A DNA stretch of 64,000 bases from Cyanophora paradoxa CCMP329 (Eukaryota > Plantae > Glaucophyta), in assembly GCA_004431415.1 (NCBI GenBank), contig QPMI01000472.1:186001-250000 (forward strand). Reading direction: 5' to 3'. Both the position numbers and the translations under genes were made by a program. The notes under the pieces were generated by a model, which was given only the letters and a program-made list of their open reading frames with translations, had not been told where the DNA came from and made no database searches. Of this stretch, positions 9,779 through 38,356 are shown piece by piece. Position 1 is the stretch's first letter. Each line of letters begins with the position of its first letter.

Positions 9779-11116
9779 ATGCCCCGAATCAGCAACAGAC
9801 TCATAAGAGAGAAGAAATGGGAACTCATGGGATTACTAGGAACACTGTATGCAGCCCATGAAATCACAGAGGCTGAATATGACCGGGAAATCGGATTTAT
9901 TTCAAGGGGCAGACCCACTTTAGCAAAATTAACCAGAAAAGCAAATAACCTCTATGACAAAGTTGAAACTCTTGATGAATTGGATCGCCTGAGGCAAATA
10001 GAACCAGAGGCAGAAGATGGAACAGCTATGAATGAATTATATCGCTGGCTCACTTACAGAGCCAGAAGGGAAGTTGTTGTTGATGTGATTGAATATTTAG
10101 ATAGAATTGCAACCTCTCTACCAAAACGTTTAAGAGACAGTCTAGATCAATTCAGGGCAATCAAAGTTCGCTTATCGTTTATCTGCAAGTTCGTAAAAGT
10201 CAGCAATCCACAGGTTTGGATATCGAAATACATTTACAGCGATTATTTTGTATTAACCAAATCGAGAAATATTCGAACTGAGCTGAATAAAGCAGCCCAA
10301 ATGTGTCAGGAGCAGATGAATGTTGTTGATAGCTATCGATTGGAGAGAATCGAAATGCTCAGAGTTGCTATTATGAGTTATGCCCCAACTGGTGGTTGCT
10401 ATGTTAAAACACCTGATTCAATTGCAGCCAAGAGAGCCACAGTGAATATTCGAAATATTGATGATTCTTGCTTCGAAAATGCAGTTTTGGCATGGATCCA
10501 TAGGAAAGATGTGAATTCCCACAAGAGAAGTGAGCTTACACAATATCGCAAATGGAAATACTCACCAACTACATACAATCCTTTGGCACTCAATTTCGAT
10601 AACATCCCATTCCCTGTTCCCTGTGATGCTGAAATCATTGATAAATTCGAATCTCAAAATGCAGGCATCAGCATAAACATATTTGGAATGGATCGAGATG
10701 TTATATATCCCCTACATCAATCCAGCAACCCAGGCAGAAAGCAAAAGATTAATCTCATGCTCATTCATGATGATGAAGGGAATGGTCACTATATTACAAT
10801 CATGTCCCTTTCAAGACTTCTCAGAGTTGCCCTTGATAAAACCAAGGATCAAAAGTTACACTACTGTGATACATGCTTATCTCGATTCAGGTCTGAGGCT
10901 AAACTCACTGCTCATGTGGACTCAAACAGATGCATTGATTGGAGACTCTCAAAAGGAATCACCCCTAAACCTGAGACCACCATAGAGTTTGGACTGAAAA
11001 ACCTTAGGAAAACTGTGTGGCTTCCTGTTGTGGTCTACTGCAAGATTGAACATAGAAGCATCCCCATTGATGCATCGAAATCCAAGAGGGAAGTCTCAGC
11101 AGTCAACATTAGAATA
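9779..11116 (+). CDS. Protein-primed DNA polymerase B of element A, 5' half (interrupted by element B)
   Basis: VNIRNIDDSCF...GHYITI (Cys/His, OTU-like region) and YCDTCLSRF...H zinc finger typical of Polinton pPolB N-termini; joins in frame to 36449. Confidence 0.88.
11111..11116 (+). repeat. Target site duplication AGAATA, left copy
   Basis: Identical 6-mer at 36443-36448, directly outside both TIRs. Confidence 0.95.
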
Positions 11117-11692
11117 GCTCGCATGCAGGTCACCCCCACCAATTGCGCGCGACCATTTTCAATAAGCACATTTACAGCATCACGAATCTCAGTCACAAAA
11201 TCACAAATTCGCACTGAGCCACACTACATTTTTCAAACATCTAACCTCTCCTTACTGAAACCAATCACGAAACCCTTTCATTCTTCATTTTTCTAATTCC
11301 TTACCATTCTCAGTAAGCCCTAAAACCCTCTCTCGATTTCTCAGTAAGGACAGTAAGACCCTTATTTTTACGAAATGTTCCCGATCGTTTCCAGACTGTT
11401 TACAGTTACCCAAATTGAAAAATCAAGGTGACCCCCACCGATAGCCTTAATCCGGATGGATCAAATACGAAATCAAGGTGAACCCCACCGATAGAGTACG
11501 ATAATCGACAAAGTACGACGATAGAACACGATTAATCGATTTATCGCAAGCAATGAAAAATAACGAAAGCAAGTTTGTGCATGAGCAAGCATGCCGAAAA
11601 TGCCCACCTGCACACACTCGCGACTTCAATCGAAATGTTCCATTTAATGCACTGGAACCACTCGCGCCCCGCCCACTATGCAAGATACATGC
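11117..11692 (+). repeat. Left TIR of element B (576 bp)
   Basis: Starts GCTCGCATGCAGG; reverse complement of 35867-36442. Confidence 0.95.
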
Positions 11693-11959
11693 AAACTACA
11701 TGCGAGTTCCATGAAAAACTATAACGATTAAGTCATGTATATATTTCGTATATATGTCCGAACCTCCGTGTGTGTGATCCCGCACAACTTTGATTTTTTT
11801 GTTTTTTTGTTTTTTTTCTCATATGGCGACATATACATATATATACCGGCGTCACCGACATATTCGGGGTCATCATATCGGGGCGATTCCGAAAACATAT
11901 AGCATGCCACAAAGTAGTAATTAATGTTTTTGTTGTGGTATTCGACCAATCACAAGCCA

Positions 11960-12044
11960 CTAGAAAGGGGAATACCGATTTACTAGAAAGGTCTAGAAAG
12001 GGGGGCTACCGGTTTACTAGAAAGGTCTAGAAAGGGGGGATACC
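11960..12044 (+). repeat. Subterminal direct repeats (CTAGAAAGG x5 in about 33-bp units)
   Basis: Directly visible tandem units in non-coding DNA. Confidence 0.7.
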
Positions 12045-12297
12045 TAAAAACTGACAGCTGTTAACAGGTGTCACATGCAAAAAAACCCAGAGTTCGAACA
12101 AAAACTAAAAACAAACAAAATCAAAAAAACAAAAAAACAAAAAGCCGAAAACCGCCATACAAACCGTCAAACCCCTGTATCTCTTCACCAACTCATCGCC
12201 ATTCAAAAATGAAAATAGCGCCGTGACCGTCTTGATGAGACCAGCACGCACATGTAGATATCATATGGTCATTAAAATATTTGTTAAATAATTAATA

Positions 12298-12690
12298 ATG
12301 GATTCCCGATACCGCGGCTACCACGTTATGCTCGACTATATAACCGAGCCGTTTACTGAGTCCCCGGAGGCATGCGCCGAGTGGATCACAGCGAACCTAT
12401 CGCAATATATCACAGATCGCAATATGCGCATCGTGCACCAGCACACATGCATTTTCGATGGCTCTAATTCCCCTCCCGGTTTCGCGATTGGCTTTCTATT
12501 AGATGAGTCGCATGCCACAGCTCACTCTTATAGCGACCAGGGGCTATTAGCGATCGATATCTTTACATGCGGCTCAAATGCCGAAGCGAAGACAATGGGT
12601 ATAGCACAGGACATTAACGATCTCATACAGGAAAGGCTGAAAGTGCGAAAGTGGGACTTACAGGTCGAGCAAAGGTTCCCAATTTCATAA
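12298..12690 (+). CDS. speD: S-adenosylmethionine decarboxylase proenzyme (short prokaryotic-type)
   Basis: GYHVMLD...LLDESHATAHSY...LAIDIFTCG with the ESH self-cleavage site. Confidence 0.88.
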   Translation: MDSRYRGYHVMLDYITEPFTESPEACAEWITANLSQYITDRNMRIVHQHTCIFDGSNSPPGFAIGFLLDESHATAHSYSDQGLLAIDIFTCGSNAEAKTMGIAQDINDLIQERLKVRKWDLQVEQRFPIS

Positions 12691-12715
12691 AAAATGAAAA
12701 AAACGACAGATATAT

Positions 12716-13030
12716 TTAATGCTCCTTGATCGGAAACTTGCCCATTAGCGGGTGATCGAGACCCATGACATACCAGGATTTCATAACGGGATCCCAGCGG
12801 GCTTTCTCAGCCTTCGCTTGATCCTTAAATTCATAAGGAATATCGAGGTAAACCTTCACGTTTCTTTGATACACTTGCTCATAGCTTAGAGTTTTGAACT
12901 GAGAGCATAGGGGGTGATCTTTCTTCATGACATACCAGCATGAATTCTCACGATCCCACTTTCCACCGAGGGATTTCGCAACGTCTTTTTTATCAAACGG
13001 AATATCAACATAATACTTTTCACCCTCCAT
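12716..13030 (-). CDS. Tandem DUF5710-like domain protein
   Basis: Two repeats of Y.DIP(F/Y)..KD.AK....WD....WYV. Confidence 0.75.
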   Translation of the reverse strand: MEGEKYYVDIPFDKKDVAKSLGGKWDRENSCWYVMKKDHPLCSQFKTLSYEQVYQRNVKVYLDIPYEFKDQAKAEKARWDPVMKSWYVMGLDHPLMGKFPIKEH

Positions 13031-13069
13031 CTCTTTTATATTTACCGGAGAAAATAATTTCGGGGTTTG

Positions 13070-14452
13070 TTATGAACGAGAAGACCGAAGAATGCGCGTA
13101 GTAGGGGCTGTGTAGCTTGCGCTCTGATTCTTGAATGATTTATACCACCGCTGACTGTTTACCTCTGAGAGCTTCTCAGTTCCCGCGATCGTTAATTTAG
13201 CGAGCTCTCTCAGCGCCCTCTTTGTCTTTTCTGCGCGATCTTCCAATAATGCGCCTTTTGGAACACTTGCGGCGACATCTATGCCTTCTTTTTGAACCTG
13301 CCGGATAGAAGCGGCTTCCATTTCGGCTGCTTTAATTGCATTTTCTGCGGGCTCGACCACTGCCTCGACCTCTGTAATGATTTGCAATTCGTGCGGCTTA
13401 AAAAGCTTCGGCATTACGTTCCCCGCTGCATCTTGCACCTCTATCGCGTTTCCTCTCCTTCCCGCAATTTTGTAGACCTCTCTGCTATACCTTTGTGTTG
13501 CTCCTTTATCAAACTTTGATCTTGGCAATAATACACGGACGTGGAGACCCGGCTTAAAGTCGCTGAATATATCCTTTACGATTGTGTTCTTCTTTGAAAT
13601 AATAGCCGCTCGGATCCGCTCCATATCAGAAAGCTTAACATCCCCGGGTTTCATTCCTATGGTTCGGTGAATCGTGTTGTTGTAATTGAAAACGAAGTCG
13701 TCCAGCTTGTCCATAAACCGCACAGTATTATATGCGACACAGTAATTGTTTATCATCGTTTTTAGGGTCAAATGAAAGCGATTCATTATTCCCAGCGAAG
13801 TGTGATCTCCGACCTGTTTAAAGCGGTGCTCTATTCCATTGCTTTTAACGACCTCCTGAAACTCCTTCGCGATGAATTCTGAGCCGTTATCTGTCTCCAA
13901 TCGAATCATCGGAGCCGGGAGATCTGTGAGCATCTCCGCAAAAGCGGCGGCAACACTTGCGCCCTCCTTATTCTTTAACTTCTTGGCATATGCTTTTCGG
14001 CTTGTCATCTCAATGAGAGTAAGGACTGCAATGTAGCCGGAATTATAATTGCCATATGAGAGATAAAATATGAGATCCGCTTGATAGCACCACGGCGGGG
14101 CTGTGATGGGAATAAAAGCTGTTTGGGTCGGTGCTGGGGGCTTCTTGTTAATCTGCATAAATTCTTGTTTCGCTGCGACATCTTGCACTTCTTTCAATGT
14201 GAGGCTCTTGTCCTCTTTTCTCAGCTCTTCGTACAATGCCGATGGGTTCTTAAAACCTGTCTTTGGGTCATACATGCGGCGCACGATCTTCGAGGACGGG
14301 TTAGCAATGCTAAAAGGAACATCTCCTAATAAATTTGATTTTGCTTGGCGTTTTGTGATTTTTTGGGGGACTTGCTCAGTTTCAGGAACCGCGATAGGTA
14401 GTATGGTGGTCTCTGTCTCCTCTCCCGCTACCCTTCTGACGATCCGTGACAT
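13070..14452 (-). CDS. Retroviral-like (rve) integrase of element B
   Basis: YQADL, ETDNGSEF, GIMNRFHLTLK and YNNTIHRTIGMKP motifs. Confidence 0.93.
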   Translation of the reverse strand: MSRIVRRVAGEETETTILPIAVPETEQVPQKITKRQAKSNLLGDVPFSIANPSSKIVRRMYDPKTGFKNPSALYEELRKEDKSLTLKEVQDVAAKQEFMQINKKPPAPTQTAFIPITAPPWCYQADLIFYLSYGNYNSGYIAVLTLIEMTSRKAYAKKLKNKEGASVAAAFAEMLTDLPAPMIRLETDNGSEFIAKEFQEVVKSNGIEHRFKQVGDHTSLGIMNRFHLTLKTMINNYCVAYNTVRFMDKLDDFVFNYNNTIHRTIGMKPGDVKLSDMERIRAAIISKKNTIVKDIFSDFKPGLHVRVLLPRSKFDKGATQRYSREVYKIAGRRGNAIEVQDAAGNVMPKLFKPHELQIITEVEAVVEPAENAIKAAEMEAASIRQVQKEGIDVAASVPKGALLEDRAEKTKRALRELAKLTIAGTEKLSEVNSQRWYKSFKNQSASYTAPTTRILRSSRS

Positions 14453-14470
14453 TCTTCTAATTAACCCTGT

Positions 14471-17400
14471 TTATTTTTTGCTGCAATTGCACCCGTGATG
14501 CGCGAGTTGACAATTGTCTTTAAGATGTGGGCGCCTGTTGTTAATGCGATCCACGACGAGCCTATAATTCGGATCTTGCGGCTCAATCGGAATCGGAAGG
14601 GAACAGATCGCACAGGCGCCCTTCTGTTGCTTCTTGCGCTCTAATATCCACTCCGGCGTAATATAATCCGCCTCATCGAAATCGCGCCCGGCACGCTGAT
14701 CCTGGCATTTATAACCGCGGATCTTCGTTTTCAGATATTCGATGTAGTCGCTCTTTCCTTGGAACTTGTGAATCGGTGTATAAATCAGCACAGTGGACAG
14801 ATCGCGGTTACGAGTGAGAGCGGTATAGAACCATTCGCGAGTGGTATAGCGGAACGTAGCCTCACAAATGACAATGCCCGAATCAAGTGTGAGACCTTGC
14901 GTTGAATGACCTGTTCCTGCATAAGGGAGAGAAAAATGTTCTAACATCGCGCACGGAACCTCAAACGTGACACCATCGAAAACGTCCGTTAATGTGACCA
15001 TTTGCTTTGTGATTTTGGTGATTCGATAGGTGTAATTCGTGTATGCGTTTATAGACTCGCCCTCAGACCGCGAAATGCGTAGATACTTGCGGCAAACGAC
15101 TTCCAAACCCTTGTAGAATTTGATGCCATTGACCTCTACGGTTGGGATATTTACTTTGCGTCTATCGTGCATCAGTTTGTTGTAGGCTAAGGTCATTTCG
15201 TTTCTGTAAGCGATGCCAAAGTAGCCGTCGGGAATAGCGCTTAGATCATTAATTGTCGGTAAGCCGTATTTCGAGATAATCTGTGCGGCTTCGAGTCCGT
15301 TTTCGAAGAGATCCTCTTTAATCGCCCGAATTAATTCACGGTCTGTCTCCTTCTTGTGCCGCTTGTTAATGCGTAGACTCAGGACGTTAGGGAACATGCT
15401 CTGCACAGCGCGCTTATAGTAGCCCTTGCGATCAGAAACCGATAGCTCATCATTAATCGGTTCGTTCTGATAGGTATCGCCATTAGCCAAATATTTGATA
15501 TCCGGATAGCGATCGATAAACGACTTGATCTTAGCGAGATCTTTTACAGAATACGCGAATATCTCGTCGAACATAATGTGGCTGAACTCGGAGACAAACG
15601 CCCTCTGGTCTTTTTCGCTCATAGCCTCTTCGTAGGTCTGATCATTTGAGACACGGATCCCGAGAACATTATACAAAGTGCGAACGGTAATATTCTCGAT
15701 TCCGCGGACTTTGAGAGAGTCCCTCAGCTCTGCGCACTGTTTGTTATAGGGGCAAATGACTAAGCAATTTGACTTTTGAGAGGCAAAGCAATTAATACCG
15801 AGGGTCGACTTTCCACTTCCGGGCATGTCAGCAAGGACAAGCATACGATTATGGAGCTCCGCAACCCAATTAAAGCACTCCGGATTAAATTCGTCCCTCA
15901 GCGAGAACCGGTTAATGAGTGTCTCGGGATCCTGAAATTCGAGAGTTACACCCCGTGGTGGGCGGAGTGCATTCTCAGGGCATCTTTTCCCGGGAATATA
16001 GCTGAATTTGCCCATGTTCTCAAACGCATTTCGGTCGAACTCTTTCTTACTTGTCCATGAACCTTCGATATATAGGCAATCCGTTCTGATCCCGGCAACC
16101 TTGTGCCCGCGCGCTGTCAGGCGCTTGTATTGCGCAAACATATTAGCACGGTTGCGATCGTAAATATGAAAGTGGATAGGAAGGAATCCGTTAACGAGCT
16201 CGCGGTGGGAGCTGATCTTAACGAAATAGATGTGACCTTCGAATTCGCTAAGAGTTTTGACACGTTTCGAATTCTTAGGATTGAAAGTAAACACCTCTAC
16301 TGTTCCTCCGCATTCTTGGGCGAACCTCTCAGCCTCGGCACGGTTGTAGAACATTTTCGTGGATGTTTGCGAGTCTTGGAATTTGCCGAGCATTCCGATC
16401 TCTTTCACTAAAATATGCTTCTTATCTGTGGTTTGAATGTCGCTTGACAGCACTTTTTGCATCTCAGCGATCGACGTATTGGGCACCAAATGCGAAGGCT
16501 CCGCGACCGCGATAATCTCTATCTTGTCCTTTACGTCCGCCCAATGCATGGAGAGAGTGTAGCCTGTCATGAAATTATAACAGCGACCACTCACGGAAAA
16601 TGCGCGATCCAGTATAATTTCGATTCCATCAATCTTGCGAGACATGGCGGCATCATAATCAATATCCTCGTCGTCTGCGAAAGTTGCTTGCTCTCTCTCA
16701 AACGCAACGACACGCACGTAGTAGATCGCGTATTCGAGAATATCGCTTCCCGCTTTAAAGGGAACGAAGTCATCGAATACATTGTATTTCGGAAGATATT
16801 GCATGCCTTTCAGTATCGAAGGGTAGCACTTCGCCATATCGACAGCTGTGTAGGTGGCTTTCGGGTTCGGCTTATAGAAAAAGCCACTTAGTGCGGATCG
16901 CTTGTAGTGCGTGAGAATTTCGCGCATGTTCGGGCTGTAATGTGAGATATTCGTCGCATTTAGAAGCGACTCGCGGAATCCCTTCCCGATTTCACAGACC
17001 TTATTATAATACTCCTCTGTTTCGAAATCTTGCTCAATAAAGTGGTCTGTTGTGCGTGGATCTTTGATAGAGAACATCGAGCCATTAGCTTTGAATGTGA
17101 TGCTGTCGATCTGTTTCGATGGTGTTAGCTTCACTGCGGGTTCATATCGCATTTTCAGGAACGTAAATAGAAGACCTTCCAGACCTTCGCGCCCAGTATA
17201 CAGAATGCGGATGAAACTGCGCTCGTCGGGCGATAGTTTAAGTTGCGTGATCTTTAACAAATCCTTGGATGTGTGCGCGAAGATATCGTGAGTAAGACAC
17301 GTCGGAATTTTATAGAGTGCTAACGAAGAGTTCGACTTAGGAACATGATTATCGAGCTCTTCGACCTCCATCTTTGCCATGCGCATTTCGAGCGACTTGA

Positions 17401-18787
17401 TGTTATCGTTGAATATATAGATGTGCTTGTTGTGAATCATAAAGTGAATATTGCGGGGAAAGATGTTTTTGTTAATTGATTCCGCCGCGAATTTGTGTAT
17501 TAACTTTCCGTCGACATCAAAGACGCGGAAGCCTGTCTGAATTCTCTTACAGAATTTCTCGATATGGCGGAGCGTGAGAGCCAGAGAGTCGCCAGGTGTG
17601 CGTTCGCGACCGTGAAAGAATTTATAGAGACCGTCGTAGGACATAGTTAAGTCAGTATATCGCGGTTTTGGCGCCTCCTGACACTTCTTAATGGACGCTC
17701 CCCATGTGGAGATGATCATATCGTAGCCGCAAGCGTTAGATGTCGATGATTTGGGAAGCTCAATAATATCTTCGAACTCAGACGCGTTTGGATTTAATGT
17801 GTAGTCTGTGAATTTGCTCATAATCGCGGTGCATCGCATACTGTCCATTAGCTCCTCATCCAGGAACTCATAGCGATTGCCAGGTATAGCGCCGGCTCCA
17901 TCGTCCTCGACACCTTCGTCCCCATCGATCGCGACCTCATGAACAGTTATAAAGGCATCATCGATACTGCCGCCAAAATCATCGAAACCTTTGCGTAGTT
18001 TTTTCTGTTCCTCGGTTGGTGGTGTCTTAAAGAAGAACATCTCGTATGCTTGTCCGAAAGTTCCCAGACGAATCTTCAATTCATCGTAGTTTTCGAGTAA
18101 ATCGAAGATTGATTCGCTCTCATGCCAATCATGACGAACTTGACCCGGTCTAATTAGAATTTGAGACATTCTATCCATTTTCGCCAGAGCAAAGCTTCGC
18201 AACACACTCACCGAAACTGTCTCTCTTATATTGCGGTAGGTGACAAAGGTTCTGTCTGGTATATTTAATTCGGGAATTCCGGGAATAACAATTACCTCCG
18301 ACGACCGAGCACCGGATCCAGGTCCCCATAGCTTGAACGTAATTGTTGCGAGAGTTTCCGGATCGTATGCGGCGATTGGGTCGAGAATAGTGCGTTTAAT
18401 CGCATCCTCTACCGCTTTTAGTTTACCTCTCTGCTGCTTTGCTTCGAGCTTCGCTTCTTTCGCTCGTTTCTGTTCTTGCTTGCGATCGAAGCGCTGTAAA
18501 CGCTTCGCCTCTTGTTCTTTTTGCTTTTGCTTTTCTATATTAACTTGGGTGCGAGCGGCGCGCTTCTCTTTCCGCTCTGCCCTGCGGAAAACGCGGGGAT
18601 TAATGATGCCATTCAGAGTATCCCGAATGTCGATCAGCGTTTGGAGCTTGGGCTTCCGATTCATTGTGTTGTGCATCGCCCAATGCGCCTGTTCTTCGGT
18701 TAGCAAATCCTGACTCAATCCCTGCATAATGTATCCGATAATTTCATCCCGAACATTGTTAGCGATTCTGTTGGTTGCGCGCGGCAT
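14471..18787 (-). CDS. Fusion protein: divergent family B DNA polymerase + SF1 (RecD/Pif1-like) helicase + C-terminal HNH-like nuclease
   Basis: Pol motifs VDMAKCYPS, KHILVKEIGMLGK, GIRTDCLY; helicase motifs MPGSGKS, FDEIF, GDTYQN, HSTQGLT, YTALTR; C-terminal CAIC...VDRINNRRPHLKDNCQLAHHGCN. Confidence 0.82.
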   Translation of the reverse strand: MPRATNRIANNVRDEIIGYIMQGLSQDLLTEEQAHWAMHNTMNRKPKLQTLIDIRDTLNGIINPRVFRRAERKEKRAARTQVNIEKQKQKEQEAKRLQRFDRKQEQKRAKEAKLEAKQQRGKLKAVEDAIKRTILDPIAAYDPETLATITFKLWGPGSGARSSEVIVIPGIPELNIPDRTFVTYRNIRETVSVSVLRSFALAKMDRMSQILIRPGQVRHDWHESESIFDLLENYDELKIRLGTFGQAYEMFFFKTPPTEEQKKLRKGFDDFGGSIDDAFITVHEVAIDGDEGVEDDGAGAIPGNRYEFLDEELMDSMRCTAIMSKFTDYTLNPNASEFEDIIELPKSSTSNACGYDMIISTWGASIKKCQEAPKPRYTDLTMSYDGLYKFFHGRERTPGDSLALTLRHIEKFCKRIQTGFRVFDVDGKLIHKFAAESINKNIFPRNIHFMIHNKHIYIFNDNIKSLEMRMAKMEVEELDNHVPKSNSSLALYKIPTCLTHDIFAHTSKDLLKITQLKLSPDERSFIRILYTGREGLEGLLFTFLKMRYEPAVKLTPSKQIDSITFKANGSMFSIKDPRTTDHFIEQDFETEEYYNKVCEIGKGFRESLLNATNISHYSPNMREILTHYKRSALSGFFYKPNPKATYTAVDMAKCYPSILKGMQYLPKYNVFDDFVPFKAGSDILEYAIYYVRVVAFEREQATFADDEDIDYDAAMSRKIDGIEIILDRAFSVSGRCYNFMTGYTLSMHWADVKDKIEIIAVAEPSHLVPNTSIAEMQKVLSSDIQTTDKKHILVKEIGMLGKFQDSQTSTKMFYNRAEAERFAQECGGTVEVFTFNPKNSKRVKTLSEFEGHIYFVKISSHRELVNGFLPIHFHIYDRNRANMFAQYKRLTARGHKVAGIRTDCLYIEGSWTSKKEFDRNAFENMGKFSYIPGKRCPENALRPPRGVTLEFQDPETLINRFSLRDEFNPECFNWVAELHNRMLVLADMPGSGKSTLGINCFASQKSNCLVICPYNKQCAELRDSLKVRGIENITVRTLYNVLGIRVSNDQTYEEAMSEKDQRAFVSEFSHIMFDEIFAYSVKDLAKIKSFIDRYPDIKYLANGDTYQNEPINDELSVSDRKGYYKRAVQSMFPNVLSLRINKRHKKETDRELIRAIKEDLFENGLEAAQIISKYGLPTINDLSAIPDGYFGIAYRNEMTLAYNKLMHDRRKVNIPTVEVNGIKFYKGLEVVCRKYLRISRSEGESINAYTNYTYRITKITKQMVTLTDVFDGVTFEVPCAMLEHFSLPYAGTGHSTQGLTLDSGIVICEATFRYTTREWFYTALTRNRDLSTVLIYTPIHKFQGKSDYIEYLKTKIRGYKCQDQRAGRDFDEADYITPEWILERKKQQKGACAICSLPIPIEPQDPNYRLVVDRINNRRPHLKDNCQLAHHGCNCSKK

Positions 18788-18955
18788 CTCTATTAGTTCT
18801 TTTAAAATAACCGGAGAAAATAATTTCGGCGCAATCTACCAAATTCTCCTTTTCATACCCTTGTCGCCAAATCTTTAAGTGCTTTTTTGACCGATACGGG
18901 GAATAAAAATGGAGGTAAAAAATTAATCATTTTTTGCATCGTACGGTACTTTCCG

Positions 18956-19369
18956 CTACGAAGTTTTTGCGTTCTCGACGACATGCTTTCGGGGTCTTCC
19001 AGCGGGCTTTTGCGGCTGGGGCTTCACCGGCGGATTCAGCTTGCGTTCCGCTCTTTTCCTTCGTTGGTATTCACGTGCCTTCTCTCGGATTTTCTCCCGA
19101 TACTCTTCATCGTCTTGGTATCGCTGCTGTTTACGAATTGCGATCTTTTGTAGCTGTTCCGGTGTGAATATAGTAGCCTCTCCGGCGGCTAATCGCTCTT
19201 GCTTTTGTCTCTGATGCTTGTTTCGCTGCCGCTCTGCATCTTTCTCGCGTTTTAGTCTTAATCTCTCCGCTTTCTCCTCTTCTGTGATCACCTTCTTCGG
19301 TCGCCCTGGTCTGCGCTTTTCTTGCTGTGCCGCCATTGCCTCTTGGTTTGAAATCTTGGGTTTCGCCAT
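18956..19369 (-). CDS. Basic coiled-coil protein with two AT-hook-like motifs
   Basis: RRPGRPKK and GRPRK; RYQDDEEYRE shared with A 5704-5949. Confidence 0.65.
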   Translation of the reverse strand: MAKPKISNQEAMAAQQEKRRPGRPKKVITEEEKAERLRLKREKDAERQRNKHQRQKQERLAAGEATIFTPEQLQKIAIRKQQRYQDDEEYREKIREKAREYQRRKRAERKLNPPVKPQPQKPAGRPRKHVVENAKTS

Positions 19370-19493
19370 TTACTATAACCGGAGAAAATAGTTTTTTGTC
19401 ACTCTGTATTATTTCCCTTGCCCTTATATACCTTTTACCGAAACCTTCAATTTTTGCCCTTGGCTCGATACAAGCGCCACCGAAATTCACCGC

Positions 19494-19928: not shown

Positions 19929-20132
19929 CGATCCTACAAGGACGCAACGTATTAAATATCGGAGAAAATAAAAGGGAATGAGGGCTTTACTTGCTCGTGT
20001 GTTCCCCTACGAATTGGTCGAACTTATAATGCTGTTTATGGAGCCGACCTGTCCCTATTGCAAGGGAGTCCACATAAAGACCCGCTCTAAATACGGGCGG
20101 GTTCAGCTTTGCCTTGCGGATATTCACAGCCA

Positions 20133-20816: not shown

Positions 20817-20818
20817 GA

Positions 20819-21685: not shown

Positions 21686-21735
21686 TCTTTCACTATAAAA
21701 ACAATAGAAAAATAAGACTGAATGTGGTAATTGGT

Positions 21736-22452: not shown

Positions 22453-22524
22453 AATACTGTAAATTGTCTTGTCCTTAAATGGGCAAAAGATAAAAAGAAC
22501 GTCATTTTTTGTCCGACGAATTCC

Positions 22525-25673: not shown

Positions 25674-25679
25674 GCGCTG

Positions 25680-27171: not shown

Positions 27172-27214
27172 TATCTTATATACTTCTTATATATCTTCTT
27201 TGTTTATAAAGAGG

Positions 27215-30200: not shown

Positions 30201-30937
30201 GGACGGCTCTACCGCCTTTTATCAGGGATACAGTATATGATACCACATGCAATATTTGGGTGTGTCGATCTGTGAGCAATCCACCTGTGACACAGGAATT
30301 ATACAAGTATCTCGCAGATACCTATGGTGCAATCTCAGGATCCTCCACAGGAAATCCAGCGACGGCTCCAATCGTGTTTGCGAATGCATACACAGCGCCA
30401 ACCTCATTAGCAGGGTCGACGGAACCGCCACCAAACGATCCAAATCCGAACCAGCCTAACCCAGATCCCGATTCACAAGATCCCCCTACAACTAATCCAG
30501 ATCCAAACACACCACCTAATAATCCCACGAATCCTACAAATCCAGTCGGGGCACCGGGAACAGATCCAGGAACGTTAGTGCTTATGATTCTCTTGCCGAT
30601 TCTCGGTGCTCTTGGGCTTGTGCTTGCATACAAATTCCGAGCTTTGTGTTGTGCATGCATAGACAGAACCATTGCAGGAGCAGGTAATAAATACTCCACA
30701 CCAGAGCTTAATGTGACCCAAACAGCCGAAGGAGATGTGGGCTTAGAGGTGAGATCAGCCGAGGGGCATGGTCTTAGTGTTGTGAGGACTGACCGACCAC
30801 CAGCAAATAGGGCAGCACCCAAAAAATCACGAGCACAAGAATTGGCAGAGCAAACGATGAACAATGATAGAGACTTTATGGCGGAAATGGCACAGCGAGA
30901 AGGGAGAATATATGAACATGTTCCAAACGTTATGTAA
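27215..30937 (+). CDS. Large fibre/spike-like protein with C-terminal transmembrane helix
   Basis: Likely start MSFLNP; phage fibre-type motifs IYPATDNTYRVGLSNLRW and FDLGANSLRW; Pro/Asn/Asp linker; hydrophobic LVLMILLPILGALGLVLAY. Confidence 0.65.
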   Translation: MSFLNPRPDARVINSTTQIEDTDQVNTEIRGSLKINFNADREDPVSGTPSRPAALQLMNVEKGDHKLGIDFLLDDNERNRVASIQATRQLPKTVRYNRRNIPKAFDRGRLNFFIQDESGFQNAAMRIVDNSTLIAGVSTRKTKVEVVHDLSAGNLTTSNITASNITTDTLNVNSLNSESFFATNVATCNLNIESFVIQKSESVPQITEGVFTLDPAKPTLEIVENGNVVDIIGANAPNVRSLALDKTTISFAEEIPAFTTEKQALRKDHVHITRDNINDLLGKDIVKAFLEFERSKNTKDSSQDGTLTTHTTEIAALQSEINALFAADGALAITLAHILSKRNIYPATDNTYRVGLSNLRWSEVHGVSMFASNLILPLNHSLRPNQILTNGNALISYTDYNSNLSRSVSQTETYTVEGYPQQLANGVYVAYVGKPTYTFTWDQLGVTGFETNIPTVSLVDHTTYYNPIYNNNESNKAFIQNVTSTGFQVSFVINETYNLLIIRNNSLSSEATISFTLNINYITPEFDSKPRVKVYRDLQGSNIVPFSQNFDLGANSLRWNTVYTLNANTCNIVVAGSSATIGDLTAPFKKEYLKELYITKSDLPDAISLVLSPTPSISYHNVKDTSNVVRSGSKVFQASEISATTYRYLAGVPANFNFTFETPFVSPPTIEITDTNLYVVNDGSATSLQNAPAGYSPFVATNITTTGFTLVGNATVTYALTSYPVGLYFSKFNLSVIPAVSLAPPFTISWKATGTIPRFDPEDRLKIRYPLDVTDIHTTRINGQNFVFNGTNATLIDNRVTNNYFFDSRYINTCNIVIQNTFENRSKTLTVTLPTHSNVSDGFHYYLFNRNYTSYIPYPSETVNMSYPRVTLTSTNADFFGSTDFMTFFAFTSSTDGLLVYYTFRYDAVWTQLDSHPNTDVIEVGDKKYIKTASPWVCTVRLDDRYTPNLNNIGLHSTCNIYVQGAISATKYFEGGNCDTGHRLLSRNGLFESFSGTALPPFIRDTVYDTTCNIWVCRSVSNPPVTQELYKYLADTYGAISGSSTGNPATAPIVFANAYTAPTSLAGSTEPPPNDPNPNQPNPDPDSQDPPTTNPDPNTPPNNPTNPTNPVGAPGTDPGTLVLMILLPILGALGLVLAYKFRALCCACIDRTIAGAGNKYSTPELNVTQTAEGDVGLEVRSAEGHGLSVVRTDRPPANRAAPKKSRAQELAEQTMNNDRDFMAEMAQREGRIYEHVPNVM

Positions 30938-30974
30938 CAACCTTAATTTTTGTAGTATTCCATAATAGAGTATA

Positions 30975-33900
30975 ATGACTGAACCCATAGTAGAAACGAC
31001 AATAAAGAATGCTGTCTTGGATAATCAATTTTATATAACCCATGCCAATATACCCAGTGAATCCAATGACCTGATAGTAGATCTAAAAGGGTATGTGATG
31101 GGAGCTATGGCTTCCAACCTGTGGAATGACATTTTTGGTTACGAGTTTGGTCACATATATGACATAGCAAATGGGATTGGCTATGTGGATGCAATGGCGG
31201 GAACAGTCTTTCGAAATCTAAATTGCAACTGTGTGGGTGGGTGGATGTTTCAGATCTGTTCAAACGTCGATCCTACTATTGATCCAGCTACTGTGACCTT
31301 TGATTGCAATCTATTCGCCCCTAAAACCATTTTCTCCATCACTTGCAATCTCGTTAATTCGGATGTGCCCATAATAGCACCTGTAATAGGTGCATCAAAT
31401 ATGTATATTCAAAGAAACCCGGTCGTGCATACAGGCGCCGAATTTATATTAGGCGACAACACCCCAATTAGTCGAATCGAACTACCCAATTCTCACAAGC
31501 ATTTGTGGGAACATATCACCAATGCCCCATTAACCTATCCACCCAGTTCTCACGAGCATTTGTGGGAGCATATCACCAATCGACCATTAACCTTCCCACC
31601 TGATCCACACACTCATGATTATTTGTCTCTCAAAGGTGGTGTTATTTCATCTAATCTTACAATTTCATCAAACCTTACAGTTACAAGTAACATTTATGCC
31701 AGTAACATTTATGCCAGTAACATTTATGGCAGTAACCTATGGGCAAGTAATATTAATGGAAGTAATGTAATAGTCGATTATCTCACTGTGAAGATTGAAG
31801 CAAACCTACCAAATCATCCGACATCGAATGTTGTTTTAGATTGGTTAGCAAAGCAAAAACACACAAAAGCAGATATTACAGATTTTGCACACACTCACAC
31901 AAAAGATCAAATAACAGATTTCGCCCACACTCATTTATGGGAGCATATCACGAATCCGCCATCGACCTTCCCACCTGGAAAACACACACATGATTACTCA
32001 GAGATAACTAATAGTAACCACAGGCACCCATGGGAGGAAATAGATGAGAAACCACGTTTTGCATCGACAGGTGATTTAGTAAATGGTGACGGATTTTATG
32101 GGGTTAGTTTCTATCAGAGTGACACCATTCCTGAAAGATTACAATTAAGTGAATACTATTTACACCGAAAAGGAATTGAAGCAGGCACCACAATGGAAGG
32201 AGAGCTATATGTTAAACAACCCACAAGAACAACATTAGTAGCAGCTGGTGGCGATGCATTAATAGACACCAAACCAGGTATATTTTTAACAAGTTATTAT
32301 AATGCGGATATCCCAGTTACAGCAGGTTTACCACCGCTTCCATCTGATCCAGCAACTTATGATGACAAAGACGCCATTTTACAAGTGAATGTAACAGATG
32401 TAAGCGCAACTGATGGTTCACGTCCGAAAATTATATTTAGTCGCTCGAAATTCAATTACATCCCACTTGTGGGACAACCATACGATGATCACGGTAAATG
32501 TGAGATGGCGTGGATTAAAACGACATCAGGAGGCGCCTTAGAAGTCAATCAAAGAATGGCGGCGAAAAACTTACACAATACAACCCTTTCAGGTGTGGTA
32601 ACAGATGATTACCTCGAAAGCAAAAACTATGTAGATGATACAGAACTTGCAGCAATTCTTGAAGATTATGTAACAGATACCGAATTAACGTCGGCTCTTG
32701 GGAATTATTTACCTCTAACAGGTGGGACTCTTACAGGTGATGTGCATGCCCCGAATTTCTTTGTCGACACTCCACATGATCAAACATTTCCTGTTGTCCA
32801 CCTTGGTGCTGAATATGTTTTAGATCCAAACACCCCATTTAGTCGTCTTGAATTACCCAATGTTCACAAGCATTTTTGGGAGCATATTGTCAATCCCCCA
32901 TCGACCTATCCACCTGATTCACACGATCATGATTATTTACCACTAACAGGTGGAACAATTGCAGGTGATGTGCATGCTTCTAATTTCTTTGTTACTACTC
33001 CGAATGATCAAACATTTCCTGTTGTCCACCTTGGTGCTGAATATGTATTAGATCCAAACACTCCAATTAGTCGCATTGAATTACCCAATGTTCACAATGT
33101 TCGACCATTAACCTTCCCACCTGATCCACACACTCACACAAAGTCAGAGATTACAGATTTTTCACACACTCACACAAAGTCAGAAATAACAGATTTTGCC
33201 CATACCCACACAAAGTCTCAAATTACAGACTTCCCGACATTTGCGACTGTGGCAACAACTGGAAACTATGATGATCTGATAAATACACCAACATACACTT
33301 CACCAACTGATTTTGACGCTACAAGTGGTATTTCCACAGACCGCACAGGAGATTGGAGAGATTATTTTGGGCAACCACTTGTAGGTGACACAAGCACTTG
33401 GGCAAACACATGGATTGATGGTGATGATGATTGTAGTAGCTGTAAGATGTATTGGACTGTTCCAACAGACATGAAATCATGTTATATCTATTATACGTGT
33501 CAGTATGACAGTAGATACTTTGATGTTGTTGGAATTGAACCATCAAACAATACTTATACTCGTTTACGAGTAAATGCCTATGCTCCTGGAATTAATCCTG
33601 TAAGAGATTTTAAACAGTTTGTTGCAATAAATTGTGAAGGACTTGTTAAAGTTGGTGTTCATGGACAAATAGGAAGAATTTATCTTCCAGGTCCGATTAC
33701 TGTTGGTTGGAGCAAAAACCCGCTATATCGTCACACAGTGGTTTCCTCCATTGGAATAATATATACGGGAAGCCAACAGCTTCTACGACTGTCGGTCCTC
33801 ACTCTCATTTTAAAGCAGATATCACAGATTTCGCACATAGTCACACAAAGGCAAATATAACAGACTTCGCCCATACTCACACAAAATCGGAAATCACGGA

Positions 33901-34449
33901 TTTTCCAACCTTAGACCCATTTGTAGCGAACACGATCACAGCAAATAATACCATGTATGTGGGATCCGGTCAAATTTACCAACCAGATGCACCACTTTAT
34001 TTAGAACAATGGTTTTTCCACAATTCCGCAAATATATACGATAAAACGTTATTATGTCGGGGAAATGCTTACGCAAGAGCATATTATGCAATGGATGAAA
34101 CAGATAATACAAAGATCGCAAAACTTGTTTCAGAACAGCGTGTCAATAAAGACCAGTATATACAAACAGGGAAATTCTCAAAATCTTTGACAATCACAGG
34201 TCCGGGTCATTGGGGATTTCCACAGGTTGTCACATTCCCGAAAGCATTTGCGGAAGCCCAGAAGTGGTTCTCAATCTGATACAAGGATATAATGGTGGTT
34301 CATATGTATTGGTATATGGTGTCACAAGTTCCACAACAACAACATTTACTATTCATGCAACAATTTCGGCAAATAGAGAATACAATGAAAGCATTGGACT
34401 TTTCCACTATCAAATGAGTTATATAGCAACAGGGAAGATGGTAGCATAA
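30975..34449 (+). CDS. Phage tail fibre-like protein with HxH repeats (frameshifts near 33716 and 34252)
   Basis: Repeats HTHTKxxITDF, HLWEHITNxPxTFPP, YLPLTGGTLTG, ATVATTGNYDDL; three ORF pieces rejoin with one extra base in homopolymer runs. Confidence 0.78.
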
Positions 34450-34504
34450 TATTCTCACGTAATAATAATAATATTCTCACGTAATAATAAAGAATAATCA
34501 AAAG

Positions 34505-35503
34505 ATGTCGACTGTGTTTACCCCTGTGTTTTCCTTATCAGCCAGTGCTGTCCACAACGTGCAACACACTGTATATGATCTAAGCGAGTCATTCCCTTCG
34601 ACTGAGACAGCGAAAACCGATTCTTTCAATGAGACCTCCATACTCAGAGTCAAAGAACTCAGAGCCGACAAGGCTGGTGGAATCGTCAAAGCTACTCAAA
34701 TGATCGTATCGAATCGACCCGCAATATCTTCGGGGCTGGTCACCAAAGATAATCTATATGAAGGTCAAGCGGATTATAAAACAGCTTTTAATCCGGCTGA
34801 TAGGAAATCAGCGGCTTTTCAAGTAGTTAGTGGCGGGGCATGGATCGGGACTGGACTGAGTGTGAATGGAGCAATTACAGCGACTTCCTATGGGGCTGTG
34901 AGTGCAACCACTGGTGGGTTTACTGGATTACTCACAGCAAGTGGTGGAGTGAAAACAAACTCGATTGAAGCTGTGGGTGCAAGCGATAATATTGCACTGA
35001 AAAGGAATGGAGCCACAATAGCTACTGTTGCCTCAAACGGGATCTCTCTGCCCCAAAACATGTATTTGATTGCGCCAAATAATTGTCGGTTTAAAGCTTA
35101 TGCAAATCAGACCAATCAGACATGTTCAAACTCATGGGCATTTATTAATATATTTGGTGCAACACATGAAAATGTGGGAAATAACTACAATACAACTGGG
35201 AAATATTTTGTAGCTCCTGTCTCGGGAGTGTATATTTTCACATTGGGTATCACGAAAATTTCCGGAACAGTTAGTAAAGTATTGACCTTTTACAGCACTT
35301 CACACACTACAATATCAGGAAGTTTAACTGGAAACTATTTACATGGTGGTATTGATCCTGTTGCATTTAACAGCACAGTATTTATGAAGGTTGATGCGAA
35401 TACAACAGTTGCGCCTTGGATATACGTGTATGAGGGAAGTATGGTAATAACTGGGAACGATCCTGCGGTTATCTTTCAAGGTGCTCTACTTTATGCTGTT
35501 TAA
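34505..35503 (+). CDS. Fibre/receptor-binding protein with C-terminal C1q-like domain
   Basis: NVGNNYNTTGKYFVAPVSGVYIF...FQGALL; N-terminal domain shared with 44467-45294. Confidence 0.8.
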   Translation: MSTVFTPVFSLSASAVHNVQHTVYDLSESFPSTETAKTDSFNETSILRVKELRADKAGGIVKATQMIVSNRPAISSGLVTKDNLYEGQADYKTAFNPADRKSAAFQVVSGGAWIGTGLSVNGAITATSYGAVSATTGGFTGLLTASGGVKTNSIEAVGASDNIALKRNGATIATVASNGISLPQNMYLIAPNNCRFKAYANQTNQTCSNSWAFINIFGATHENVGNNYNTTGKYFVAPVSGVYIFTLGITKISGTVSKVLTFYSTSHTTISGSLTGNYLHGGIDPVAFNSTVFMKVDANTTVAPWIYVYEGSMVITGNDPAVIFQGALLYAV

Positions 35504-35539
35504 GTGCATTTGCGAATTTTTTTATAATGCGTTATATAA

Positions 35540-35800
35540 ATGGCGACTATAACTATTACGTTAACTCAAACAGAACTCAATGCTATGGAGTATGCTGCTG
35601 CTTCGGCTCAGGAATGGATAGAAGTTGCTTTGAAAAATAGGGCGAGAATCGCGATTGATGAGATTGTGGACAAAGAAGTTAAATCGTGTATTGCCGCTGG
35701 AATTCCGATTCCACTCACAAAGGAAGCGATTGTAGAGCAAGCGTTTGCAAGGGGGACTGTTCGAAAGGCAAGCGAAATTACTGTGAGTGCTCCTATGTAA
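35540..35800 (+). CDS. Small phage-type protein (possible fibre chaperone)
   Basis: ITITLT...MEYAA...EW...NRARIAIDEIV...IP.TKEAIV..AF.RG resembles small genes following C1q fibres in aquatic phages (recalled, not searched). Confidence 0.55.
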   Translation: MATITITLTQTELNAMEYAAASAQEWIEVALKNRARIAIDEIVDKEVKSCIAAGIPIPLTKEAIVEQAFARGTVRKASEITVSAPM

Positions 35801-35866
35801 AGAATTCGAATTCGAAGAATGAGAGATGGGTTTATTGTTATTTTTCATAGATCATGCATAAGAAAG

Positions 35867-36442
35867 GCATGTATCTTGCATAGTGGGCGGGGCGCGAGTG
35901 GTTCCAGTGCATTAAATGGAACATTTCGATTGAAGTCGCGAGTGTGTGCAGGTGGGCATTTTCGGCATGCTTGCTCATGCACAAACTTGCTTTCGTTATT
36001 TTTCATTGCTTGCGATAAATCGATTAATCGTGTTCTATCGTCGTACTTTGTCGATTATCGTACTCTATCGGTGGGGTTCACCTTGATTTCGTATTTGATC
36101 CATCCGGATTAAGGCTATCGGTGGGGGTCACCTTGATTTTTCAATTTGGGTAACTGTAAACAGTCTGGAAACGATCGGGAACATTTCGTAAAAATAAGGG
36201 TCTTACTGTCCTTACTGAGAAATCGAGAGAGGGTTTTAGGGCTTACTGAGAATGGTAAGGAATTAGAAAAATGAAGAATGAAAGGGTTTCGTGATTGGTT
36301 TCAGTAAGGAGAGGTTAGATGTTTGAAAAATGTAGTGTGGCTCAGTGCGAATTTGTGATTTTGTGACTGAGATTCGTGATGCTGTAAATGTGCTTATTGA
36401 AAATGGTCGCGCGCAATTGGTGGGGGTGACCTGCATGCGAGC
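35867..36442 (-). repeat. Right TIR of element B (576 bp)
   Basis: Ends CCTGCATGCGAGC; reverse complement of 11117-11692. Confidence 0.95.
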
Positions 36443-36448
36443 AGAATA
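36443..36448 (+). repeat. Target site duplication AGAATA, right copy
   Basis: Matches 11111-11116. Confidence 0.95.
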
Positions 36449-38356
36449 GTCACTGGGGCAGATGTTCAGGAGTTTCGATTTGAGGGTCAGGATCCAATGG
36501 GAGGTCTGTTTGAATGCTTGGATTCCAAAGCAAGAGAGCTAATTGACTTCCTGTTTACCAATATTCCCATGAATGAACTCACAGATGAGCAAAAGGCTGT
36601 TTACAGGGCTACTAAACACTGTTACCTTTGCAGTGAGAGGTTCACTAAGGAAAACTTCAAATGCAGGGATCATGATCATCACACAGGTCATTACATTGCT
36701 CCTGCATGCAGAAACTGCAATCTCCATAGGAGAATCTCAAAGCAAACCAAAGTTGCAGTTGTTGTTGATCAAATGGATGACTGTGGGACATTCATTTTCA
36801 GAAAAATAGCAGGCATGGGTGATAAAAAGCGAATCGAAATCCTTTCGAAAAACTTTGATCAATACCTTTCATTGCAATGGGGTCTTTACAAGTTCATTGA
36901 TGCAAGCAATTTCATGGATTTCGGAGCTGCTGATGTGACTGAGTTAATGAACAAATTCCAGGCTTTTAGAAGGCTTTCACACTCAGTATATGGACTTGAC
37001 CCAGTTCATTATGTATCTGCACCTGGGCTATCTTGGGATGCTATGTTAAGGACCACCAAGGCAAAAATAGAGCTTATAAGTGATGTAGAGCAATACGAAT
37101 TTGTTGAGAGGGGAATCAGGGGTGGCTTTGCAACAATGCCTTGTAGGTATGCTGAGGCTGATGGTGAGAACTCCCATATTATGCTGTTTGATGCTAACAA
37201 CTTGTATGGCTACTGCTTGAGTCAGCCAATCCCAGTTGGTGATTTTAGATGGGAGACCGAATTCAACCCACAAGATAACAGATCCAGTTTCCTGGAAGTT
37301 GATCTGGAATACCCAATAAGGCTGTATCTAGATCACAGTGATTTCCCTCTAATTATTAACAAGAAAATAGTAGAATATGCAGAATTATCACAATATCAAA
37401 AAAGCCTATTGGATCTCTCAGGAGAAGAGCTTGATAAGACCCCTAAGCTAACTGCAACCTTTGGTTCTGTGACAAACTATGTGATTTCTCAGCCTCTTCT
37501 ACAGTATATCCTGACCAAAGGGGTGAAACTTAAAAAGGTTCACAGGGTCCTATCATTTACTGTGGCTCCTGTAATGAAACTCTACATTGAACTGAACACT
37601 GATATGAGAAGGAAAGCAGTGAATAAATTCGAGGCTGATTTCTATAAACTGATGAATAATTCAATCTATGGGAAATGCATTGAATCATGTAGAGGTAGAT
37701 CTGTGGTCAAGATTGCAAACACTGAGAAACTATTTATGAAATATGCTGCCTCTCCTTTAGTGAAATCAACAAGTCCCATAAGTGAAAGAGCAGTTGCCTT
37801 TGAGTTTTACACAAAACATGTGAAGCTAGATAAGCCAGTTGCTATTGGGGCTTATGTTTTGGATGCTGCCAAACTGCATAACTACAAGTTCTTCTATGAT
37901 ACTGTGAGGTCCCAATGGTCCAAAGCCAAGTTACTATTCCATGATACTGATTCCTTCTGTCTATATATCGAATCTAAGACCCTTGAAACAGATATAGAGA
38001 ATATATCCTATGCATTGGACCTTGGAGGTGATTCCAGAATGACCCCAGGTAAATACAAAAATGAGATGCCAGGTTCTGCTATATTGGAGTATGTGGGTCT
38101 GAGAGCCAAAGTTTACAGTTTCAGAACAGCTGAGATAGAGAGAAGTAAGCTTTCTGGGACTTCCACTGAGGAACTGCAATTCAATGATTTTAAGCAGTGT
38201 TTATTTGCAGGTATCAGCAAGACTGTGACTGCAAAGCAGAAAAGAAGGGCAGATCACACAATAATAGATACTGTGAGTAGAAGGGTTGCCCTAAACTGCT
38301 TTGATGCAAAGAGATACATCTTACCAGATGGTATTAATTCTGTTCCTTTTAATTAA
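36449..38356 (+). CDS. Protein-primed DNA polymerase B of element A, 3' half
   Basis: RDHDHHTG...CRNCN insert; YGLDP..YVSAPGLSWDAML; motif A DANNLYG, motif B KLMNNSIYGK, motif C HDTDS; GLRAKVYS. Confidence 0.93.
   Translation, partial: VTGADVQEFRFEGQDPMGGLFECLDSKARELIDFLFTNIPMNELTDEQKAVYRATKHCYLCSERFTKENFKCRDHDHHTGHYIAPACRNCNLHRRISKQTKVAVVVDQMDDCGTFIFRKIAGMGDKKRIEILSKNFDQYLSLQWGLYKFIDASNFMDFGAADVTELMNKFQAFRRLSHSVYGLDPVHYVSAPGLSWDAMLRTTKAKIELISDVEQYEFVERGIRGGFATMPCRYAEADGENSHIMLFDANNLYGYCLSQPIPVGDFRWETEFNPQDNRSSFLEVDLEYPIRLYLDHSDFPLIINKKIVEYAELSQYQKSLLDLSGEELDKTPKLTATFGSVTNYVISQPLLQYILTKGVKLKKVHRVLSFTVAPVMKLYIELNTDMRRKAVNKFEADFYKLMNNSIYGKCIESCRGRSVVKIANTEKLFMKYAASPLVKSTSPISERAVAFEFYTKHVKLDKPVAIGAYVLDAAKLHNYKFFYDTVRSQWSKAKLLFHDTDSFCLYIESKTLETDIENISYALDLGGDSRMTPGKYKNEMPGSAILEYVGLRAKVYSFRTAEIERSKLSGTSTEELQFNDFKQCLFAGISKTVTAKQKRRADHTIIDTVSRRVALNCFDAKRYILPDGINSVPFN

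What the first reader, a model, noticed from the sequence alone, without database searches (positions are those of the whole stretch)
9779..38356. A complete PLV is inserted in a related PLV's polymerase, and its excision would restore the gene
Seen: B has matching 576-bp TIRs and TSD AGAATA. Deleting it gives ...AVN-IRI-VTGADVQEFRFEGQDPMGGL..., one uninterrupted 1081-aa pPolB. Because the TSD is 6 bp and codon-aligned, even a footprint-leaving excision stays in frame (adds Arg-Ile). Inference: a recent virus-in-virus insertion that silences A's replication. It could reflect competition between PLVs, or act as a switch tying A's activation to B's excision.
Basis: partly seen in the sequence, partly recalled or inferred. 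Interest (0 to 1): 0.85.

Follow-up and report, generated by a model that had tools for sequence, protein, structure and literature searches.

The report
Algal provirus inserted inside another provirus
One 25-kb integrated virus sits inside the DNA polymerase gene of a related integrated virus in an algal genome, but uninterrupted sister copies of that gene exist and such viruses are very abundant there, so this is likely ordinary chance nesting rather than a switch or an attack.

Summary
The anatomy is real. Element B (11117-36442; 576-bp TIRs, 100% identical; AGAATA on both sides) splits element A's protein-primed polymerase at codons 445-446; the two halves add up to 1081 aa and match one 1083-aa relative end to end. 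Contigs of another run show the uninterrupted site with a single AGAATA, so misassembly is unlikely. Any 6-bp duplication keeps the frame (stop-free at 3055 of 3117 sites tested in this gene), so codon alignment carries no information. The uninterrupted contigs differ from this locus by one base, so they look like sister copies, not excision products. Both families are high-copy, A has a second replicase, and B's capsid is near-identical to capsids published from Cyanophora paradoxa, where such viruses were estimated at 7.3% of the genome. From those totals about 13 nestings and about one hit in some polymerase gene are expected by chance; for this particular pair of families only 0.04-0.12. 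Nested PLVs are already reported in Halocafeteria. Targeting and excision could not be tested genome-wide. Verdict: a clean new example of a known kind.

The parts
11117..36442 (.). Element B, 25,326 bp, 44% GC; PLV of the Tlr1-like type
11117..11692 (+). B left TIR, 576 bp
35867..36442 (-). B right TIR, 576 bp, identical
11111..11116 (+). Target-site duplication, copy 1 (AGAATA; codons 445-446 of A's polymerase)
36443..36448 (+). Target-site duplication, copy 2
9779..11116 (+). A pPolB, first part (446 aa): terminal-protein domain (aa 91-201), vOTU domain (aa 210-345; Cys231, His337), zinc finger, first two exonuclease-fold strands. The frame reads on into B's TIR to 11296 (505 aa)
36449..38356 (+). 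A pPolB, second part (635 aa): rest of the exonuclease fold, endonuclease VII-like insert, palm with motifs A, B, C intact
38360..39745 (+). A rve integrase (D-D-E intact), 37% identical to B's
6498..8825 (-). A second replicase: AEP primase plus SF3 (D5-like) helicase, 775 aa, motifs intact
2446..3812 (+). A major capsid protein, in two frames in the window (break near 3175, in a C run where most contig depth shows one more C; likely an assembly error); 57-61% identical to P0122
3872..4654 (+). A packaging ATPase (Pox_A32)
1..2392 (.). A discoidin-domain ORF and two minor-capsid-like ORFs; A continues past the left edge of the window
13070..14452 (-). B rve integrase, 460 aa; Asn at the third acidic position
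14471..18787 (-). B replicase, 1438 aa: pPolB-type palm motifs plus SF1 helicase (Tlr1-like)
20819..21685 (-). B packaging ATPase (Pox_A32), 37% identical to A's
21736..22452 (-). B HNH-AP2 protein
22525..23838 (-). B major capsid protein, 437 aa; near-identical by eye to two C. paradoxa capsid entries in PMC10120064 Table S2
23886..25673 (.). B minor-capsid-like ORFs (one split near 24185)
25680..35503 (.). B patatin/discoidin-like, fibre-like and C1q-like ORFs
12298..13030 (.). B AdoMet decarboxylase and DUF5710 ORFs

Best explanation
Element B is a 25-kb integrase-bearing Polinton-like virus that sits in the polymerase gene of element A, a related endogenous virus, and it likely landed there without specific targeting because such viruses fill a sizeable share of this algal genome. 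Shown: B's identical TIRs, the 6-bp duplication, the split of one polymerase gene, the uninterrupted allele in other copies, high abundance of both families. Inferred: a retroviral-type integrase (B's own or a sister's) made a 6-bp staggered cut; the insertion breaks the exonuclease-like domain so this copy makes no full-length polymerase; the damage costs the host nothing and the A family little, because intact sister genes could supply the enzyme in trans, so the insertion persists until it decays. The open frame after any excision is an arithmetic by-product of a 6-bp duplication.
For: 6-bp TSDs are the usual product of rve integrases in PLVs (PMC12220804, passages). Any 6-bp duplication in this gene is in frame and stop-free at 3055 of 3117 sites. 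Uninterrupted site in 3 contigs of run X2, whose consensus has A where this locus has G at 36469. Both families are covered in all 30 bins in all three DNA runs laid, at depths of hundreds to thousands, against 68-90 (X1) and 11-25 (X2) for the lowest-depth long contigs shown. Published estimate for C. paradoxa: 366 capsid hits, 7.3% of 99.9 Mb (PMC10120064 Table S4 row); from it about 13 nestings and 0.7-0.9 hits in some pPolB gene (rough). The polymerase is 20.5% of A's visible length. The neighbourhood is a pile of repeats: A, B, a retroelement fragment and a third TIR element within 47 kb. Nested PLVs (5) and virophages (9) are reported in Halocafeteria (bioRxiv 10.64898/2026.07.28.741278, section 8).
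Against: For this pair of families alone the uniform expectation is only 0.04-0.12 B copies in an A polymerase and 0.2-0.6 anywhere in A, and those figures use contig depth, which the tool warns is no copy number. I have one insertion site in full and one 19-base flank, so a preference is not excluded. A related case of targeting exists: 91% of type 1 Ngaro retrotransposons lie in virophages (PMC8547959, passages). Complementation in trans is untested, and PMC12220804 calls it unlikely (passage).
Confidence: 0.76

Rival explanations
1. Targeted interference: B's integrase prefers A-type elements or their polymerase gene, which disables a competitor or gives B a safe site.
For: Low pair-specific chance expectation, 0.04-0.12. 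The two integrases, ATPases and capsids are 36-37% identical, so shared factors are conceivable. Element-into-virophage preference is known for Ngaro.
Against: One event only. The other B-family flank seen (run X17) has no match in the window at up to 3 mismatches. No sequence specificity was found for virophage rve integration (PMC8547959, passage). A and B share almost no DNA similarity (one 71-bp match). Knocking out one of many copies would do little.
Confidence: 0.1
2. Reversible block or switch: when B is activated and leaves, repair gives back A's polymerase, either exactly (through the 7-bp repeat) or with two extra residues, so A's activity depends on B's exit.
For: Both outcomes keep the frame. 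The site lies near the end of a strand before a turn, in a stretch whose length varies from 45 to 75 residues among 39 relatives, so two extra residues may be tolerated. Precedent: virophages whose genomic copy held an Ngaro were recovered without it after reactivation (PMC10945749, section passage).
Against: The precedent is a tyrosine-recombinase element; B has an rve integrase, for which I found no demonstration of precise excision in the passages read (excision is a model). The empty-site contigs differ from this locus at 36469; no footprint allele appears among the loose ends shown (24 of 323 rows). Intact sister genes make a switch at one copy unnecessary.
Confidence: 0.07
3. Intermediate in gene shuffling: the nested state leaves an intact terminal-protein/vOTU half and a separate polymerase half, or sets up a deletion that swaps replicases between A and B.
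For: The first part keeps both domains; a 619-aa ORF starts at 36497. Split TP genes and tandem or multi-replicase elements are described (bioRxiv 10.1101/2024.03.18.585575, passage; 10.64898/2026.10.13.758929, section 13).
Against: Natural splits fall between TP and vOTU, not inside the exonuclease fold; the downstream ORF would lack three core strands. No expression of this allele is shown.
Confidence: 0.04
4. Misassembly of two abundant repeats.
For: Both families are high-copy; the window has many one-base differences in homopolymer runs; no junction-spanning record was displayed.
Against: An assembly error would not place the same 6 bases at both exact TIR ends when the uninterrupted allele has them once. 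A 678-bp low-depth fibre segment of B is matched without a difference in two runs.
Confidence: 0.03

Closest known systems
Nested PLVs and virophages of Halocafeteria seosinensis (bioRxiv 10.64898/2026.07.28.741278; section 8 read)
   Same: Complete TIR- and TSD-bounded viral elements inside other viral elements (5 PLVs, 9 virophages).
   Different: Other host; the section read does not describe a PLV inside a polymerase gene or discuss restoring a frame.
Ngaro retrotransposons in Cafeteria endogenous virophages (PMC8547959, PMC10945749; passages)
   Same: A mobile element interrupting viral genes, once a pPolB; apparent removal on reactivation.
   Different: Ngaro is a tyrosine-recombinase retrotransposon with a measured preference for virophages; B is a capsid-bearing virus with an rve integrase and no preference shown.
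Cyanophora paradoxa endogenous PLVs (PMC10120064 Tables S2, S4; PMC12220804 Table S6; single rows seen)
   Same: B's capsid is near-identical to listed entries, A's is 57-61% identical to P0122 from this species; the gene set (rve, pPolB, SF1 and SF3 helicases, AdoMet decarboxylase, discoidin-patatin, no protease) matches the tabulated profile.
   Different: I found no description of this nesting; the per-element coordinate table was not held.
Tlr1-like PLVs (for B) and Polintons with TP-vOTU-exo-palm pPolB (for A) (bioRxiv 10.1101/2024.03.18.585575; passages and section 9)
   Same: B: rve integrase plus a large palm/SF1-helicase protein. A: pPolB with TP and vOTU domains next to an rve integrase.
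   Different: A's polymerase lacks the acidic exonuclease motifs, A has a second AEP-SF3 replicase, and no maturation protease is visible in either.

Membership tests
Tlr1-like PLV (element B) | Long terminal inverted repeats | tested here: met
   576 bp, 100%
Tlr1-like PLV (element B) | 5-6 bp target-site duplication | tested here: met
   AGAATA twice here, once in the uninterrupted allele
Tlr1-like PLV (element B) | rve integrase | tested here: met
   PF00665 E 3e-13. Third acidic site is Asn, as in 1 of 8 relatives and locus L004; Asp in 4 and Glu in 3 of 8; activity untested
Tlr1-like PLV (element B) | pPolB palm fused to SF1 helicase | tested here: met
   Motif matches at aa 650, 795, 898, 984, 1073, 1292 (patterns written from the sequence and from recall); weak Pfam SF1 hits, best E 8e-4; not folded
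Tlr1-like PLV (element B) | Double jelly-roll capsid and packaging ATPase | tested here: met
   Atlas neighbours with Capsid_N in 12-33% of members; near-identical entries HHpred-matched to capsids in PMC10120064 Table S2; Pox_A32 E 2e-10
Tlr1-like PLV (element B) | Minor capsid protein | tested here: inconclusive
   Candidate ORFs resemble each other and A's; only a weak DUF5901 hit
Polinton/Maverick (element A) | pPolB with TP, vOTU, exonuclease and palm domains | tested here: met
   PF03175; model of P0001 matches phi29 polymerase E 6e-17; first half matches little-finger (Z 8.3, rmsd 2.7, 96 aligned) and OTU folds (Z 7.1, rmsd 4.0, 105 aligned). Exonuclease acidic motifs absent
Polinton/Maverick (element A) | rve integrase | tested here: met
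   PF00665 E 1.6e-4, D-D-E aligned
Polinton/Maverick (element A) | Capsid and packaging ATPase | tested here: met
Polinton/Maverick (element A) | Maturation protease | tested here: inconclusive
   No Pfam hit among the 36 ORFs scanned, but A runs off the window; protease columns are 0 for glaucophyte elements in PMC12220804 Table S6
Polinton/Maverick (element A) | TIRs and TSD of its own | not testable with these tools
   Left end outside the window; no genome held
Excision-controlled gene switch (recalled examples: sigK skin element, nif excisons) | Site-specific recombinase and a recurring fixed site | tested here: not met
   B has an rve integrase, no recombinase hit; a second B-family flank differs
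Excision-controlled gene switch (recalled examples: sigK skin element, nif excisons) | Restored allele arising from the interrupted locus | tested here: inconclusive
   Empty-site consensus differs from this locus at 36469; table cut, contigs drop rare variants

The most novel reading that the evidence does not exclude
B-family viruses preferentially integrate into A-family viruses and leave again on activation, so that A's polymerase is restored exactly or with two extra residues: a reversible virus-on-virus block in a glaucophyte alga.
Probability: 0.07. Interest if true: 0.8.

Novelty: new member of a known kind. Interest (0 to 1): 0.27.

Why it matters
As it stands, it is a tidy example of nesting among endogenous viruses and shows the order of events (B after A). 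Its use is practical: how rve-bearing PLVs leave a genome is not established in the passages I read, and this locus is a ready reporter, since its own variants tell an excision product from a sister copy and an exact repair from a +6 footprint. If targeting or reversible blocking were shown, it would be a new kind of interaction between endogenous viruses.

Tried and rejected
Genome-wide list of B insertion sites: no genome held; B's TIR end had 0 matches in metagenome contigs; B's capsid had no confirmed relative in viral contigs; four viral loci with 31-34% polymerase identity were too distant; the coordinate rows for this species in PMC10120064 Table S5 are not in the stored part; AGAATA had 0 hits in the supplements of PMC12220804. 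Codon alignment as a signal: rejected. Splicing B out as an intron: 16 of 36 GT/AG pairs near the junctions are frame-compatible, near the third expected, none at the exact ends, and a 25-kb intron is unlike the short introns seen by eye in the neighbouring host-like gene; the 'net aa' column used a baseline 2 aa too low and is not used. A as a decayed copy: 15 of the 17 listed one- or two-base differences that I looked up sit in homopolymer or dinucleotide runs, so they are more likely assembly errors; not proven. B's integrase as dead: Asn at that site recurs in relatives. Expression: no RNA holder listed; runs guessed as RNA gave a few contigs, one of which covers 10787-11117 and stops at the junction; not used as evidence. 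The bacterial promoter scan is not applicable. Sequence search of solved structures with the second half gave nothing. Earlier findings by place or sequence: none. Literature searches returned no report of a PLV inside another PLV's polymerase in this species or of such targeting; bioRxiv supplements were not available and may list such cases.
Full report
Observation. The window holds a 41-kb AT-rich block in a GC-rich background. The longest inverted repeat has arms 11117-11692 and 35867-36442, 576 nt, fully complementary. AGAATA lies directly outside both arms. It forms codons 445-446 of the ORF starting at 9779, and the sequence after the second copy continues in that frame to 38356: 446 + 635 = 1081 aa. 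A search with the second half found P0001, 1083 aa, which matches the first half over residues 1-429 and the second over 445-1077. In run X2 three contigs follow the window to 11117 and go on with the sequence after the second AGAATA, so an uninterrupted allele with one AGAATA exists.

The two elements. B (25,326 bp, 44% GC) encodes an rve integrase, a 1438-aa protein with polymerase palm and SF1 helicase motifs, a packaging ATPase, a capsid, minor-capsid-like and fibre-like proteins, the layout of Tlr1-like PLVs (bioRxiv 10.1101/2024.03.18.585575, section 9). A (39% GC) encodes capsid, ATPase, an AEP-SF3 primase-helicase, the split polymerase and an integrase. Integrase, ATPase and the first part of the capsid are 36-37% identical between A and B, with almost no DNA similarity. 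A's left end is outside the window and its right end is unresolved.

Host. B's capsid is near-identical, by eye, to two Cyanophora paradoxa capsid entries in Table S2 of PMC10120064, and P0122, 57-61% identical to A's capsid, comes from that species. The host is therefore very likely this glaucophyte alga. That paper's Table S4 row gives 366 capsid hits in 99.9 Mb and an estimate of 7.3% of the genome; PMC12220804 Table S6 tabulates the same gene types for glaucophyte elements. The families are thus already catalogued.

What the insertion does. A model of P0001 (mean pLDDT 80) matches phi29 polymerase and adintovirus-type polymerases. A model of the first half has a little-finger-like domain at 91-201 and an OTU-like domain at 210-345 (middling Z, but both as described for polinton polymerases). 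The site maps near the end of the second strand of the exonuclease fold (P0001 437-446). This copy can therefore make the priming and protease domains but no whole polymerase. A and P0001 both lack the acidic exonuclease motifs, while the other 38 of 39 alignment rows keep the first one; the palm motifs are intact.

Is the in-frame duplication special? No. Six is a multiple of three: a 6-bp duplication placed at every position of the two halves gave no stop at 1254 of 1272 and 1801 of 1845 sites. Six bp is the usual duplication of rve integrases in PLVs (PMC12220804, passages). The flanking repeat is 7 bp if B's first base is included, so an exact repair is also conceivable, but that is a one-in-four coincidence.

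Is it more than chance? Contigs of three DNA runs cover both elements in all 30 bins. Taking a low-depth segment of B as the unit gives roughly 53-75 for A's polymerase and 24-41 for B; the tool warns that such depth is no copy number, so these are orders of magnitude. With them, uniform insertion gives 0.04-0.12 B copies in an A polymerase and 0.2-0.6 in A-type DNA, which counts somewhat against pure chance for this pair. The polymerase is a fifth of A's visible length, and the surroundings hold two more mobile elements. The single other B-family flank visible (run X17) has no match in the window. I could not list insertion sites genome-wide.

Switch or competition? The uninterrupted contigs carry A at 36469 where this locus has G (consensus of 3, agreement 0.96), so they look like sister copies. 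No footprint allele is among the 24 of 323 loose-end rows shown. With intact sister genes and a second replicase in A itself, loss of this one gene need not stop A, though supply in trans is untested and PMC12220804 calls it unlikely. For the switch there is one real precedent: Cafeteria virophages were recovered without the Ngaro element that interrupts their genomic copy (PMC10945749, passages), and some Ngaro types prefer virophages (PMC8547959, passages). Those elements use a tyrosine recombinase; B does not.

Comparison with what is known. Viral elements nested in one another are reported as frequent in Halocafeteria (bioRxiv 10.64898/2026.07.28.741278, section 8); retrotransposons in PLV genes are reported in cryptomonads; tandem and multi-replicase elements in bioRxiv 10.64898/2026.10.13.758929 (section 13). 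Of PMC8502044 and bioRxiv 10.1101/2025.10.09.676808 I saw passages only. Six searches found no description of this nesting or of PLV-into-polymerase targeting. Two earlier unchecked notes of this scan describe similar nestings in other genomes; they are leads, not support.

Verdict. A real, recent, cleanly bounded virus-in-virus insertion; most likely untargeted (0.76). Targeting 0.10, reversible switch 0.07, shuffling intermediate 0.04, misassembly 0.03. New member of a known kind; interest 0.27.

Noticed in passing
window 9779-11116 and 36449-38356; P0001: A's polymerase and its closest relative both lack the acidic exonuclease motifs, which the other 38 of 39 aligned relatives keep at motif I, and have a shorter exonuclease region: a likely proofreading-deficient lineage.
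   Followed up: partly
window 6326-8825: A carries a second replicase (AEP-SF3) ending next to a 93-bp hairpin (z -7) that is 88% like a hairpin in the repeats at 43285-43377 and 63540-63632; contig depth over this gene is lower than over A's capsid genes, as if only some A copies carry it.
   Followed up: partly
window 605 and about 40320: A 1151-bp contig of run X17 joins these two places (loose ends): a likely internally deleted A-family derivative.
   Followed up: partly
window 43146-64000: Inverted repeats (43161-43913 and 63005-64000, 97-100%) bracket 4 kb of AT-rich viral-like genes without capsid or replicase plus about 15.7 kb of GC-rich, intron-rich host-like DNA with a cysteine-repeat gene: captured host DNA or two separate remnants.
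   Followed up: no
window 41199-43144: A 2-kb GC-rich, multi-copy retroelement fragment with RNase H; a contig of run X19 skips three 50-89-bp stretches with CT..AC ends, i.e. introns on the opposite strand.
   Followed up: no
window 13070-14452: B's integrase has Asn at the third acidic site; among 8 relatives it is Asn in 1, Asp in 4, Glu in 3.
   Followed up: partly
window 6400-19000, runs X1, X2, X16: The depth of B's long contigs relative to A's primase contigs is about 1-2 in X1 and X2 but 3-7 in X16 (table 8), a hint that B's abundance differs between cultures.
   Followed up: no
window 12298-12690 and 45779-46180: AdoMet decarboxylase genes in B and in the third element, 48% identical.
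   Followed up: no
window 43047-43144 and 52468-52540: A short repeat at the retroelement's end also sits in the host-like gene and has very high depth in the runs guessed to be RNA.
   Followed up: no
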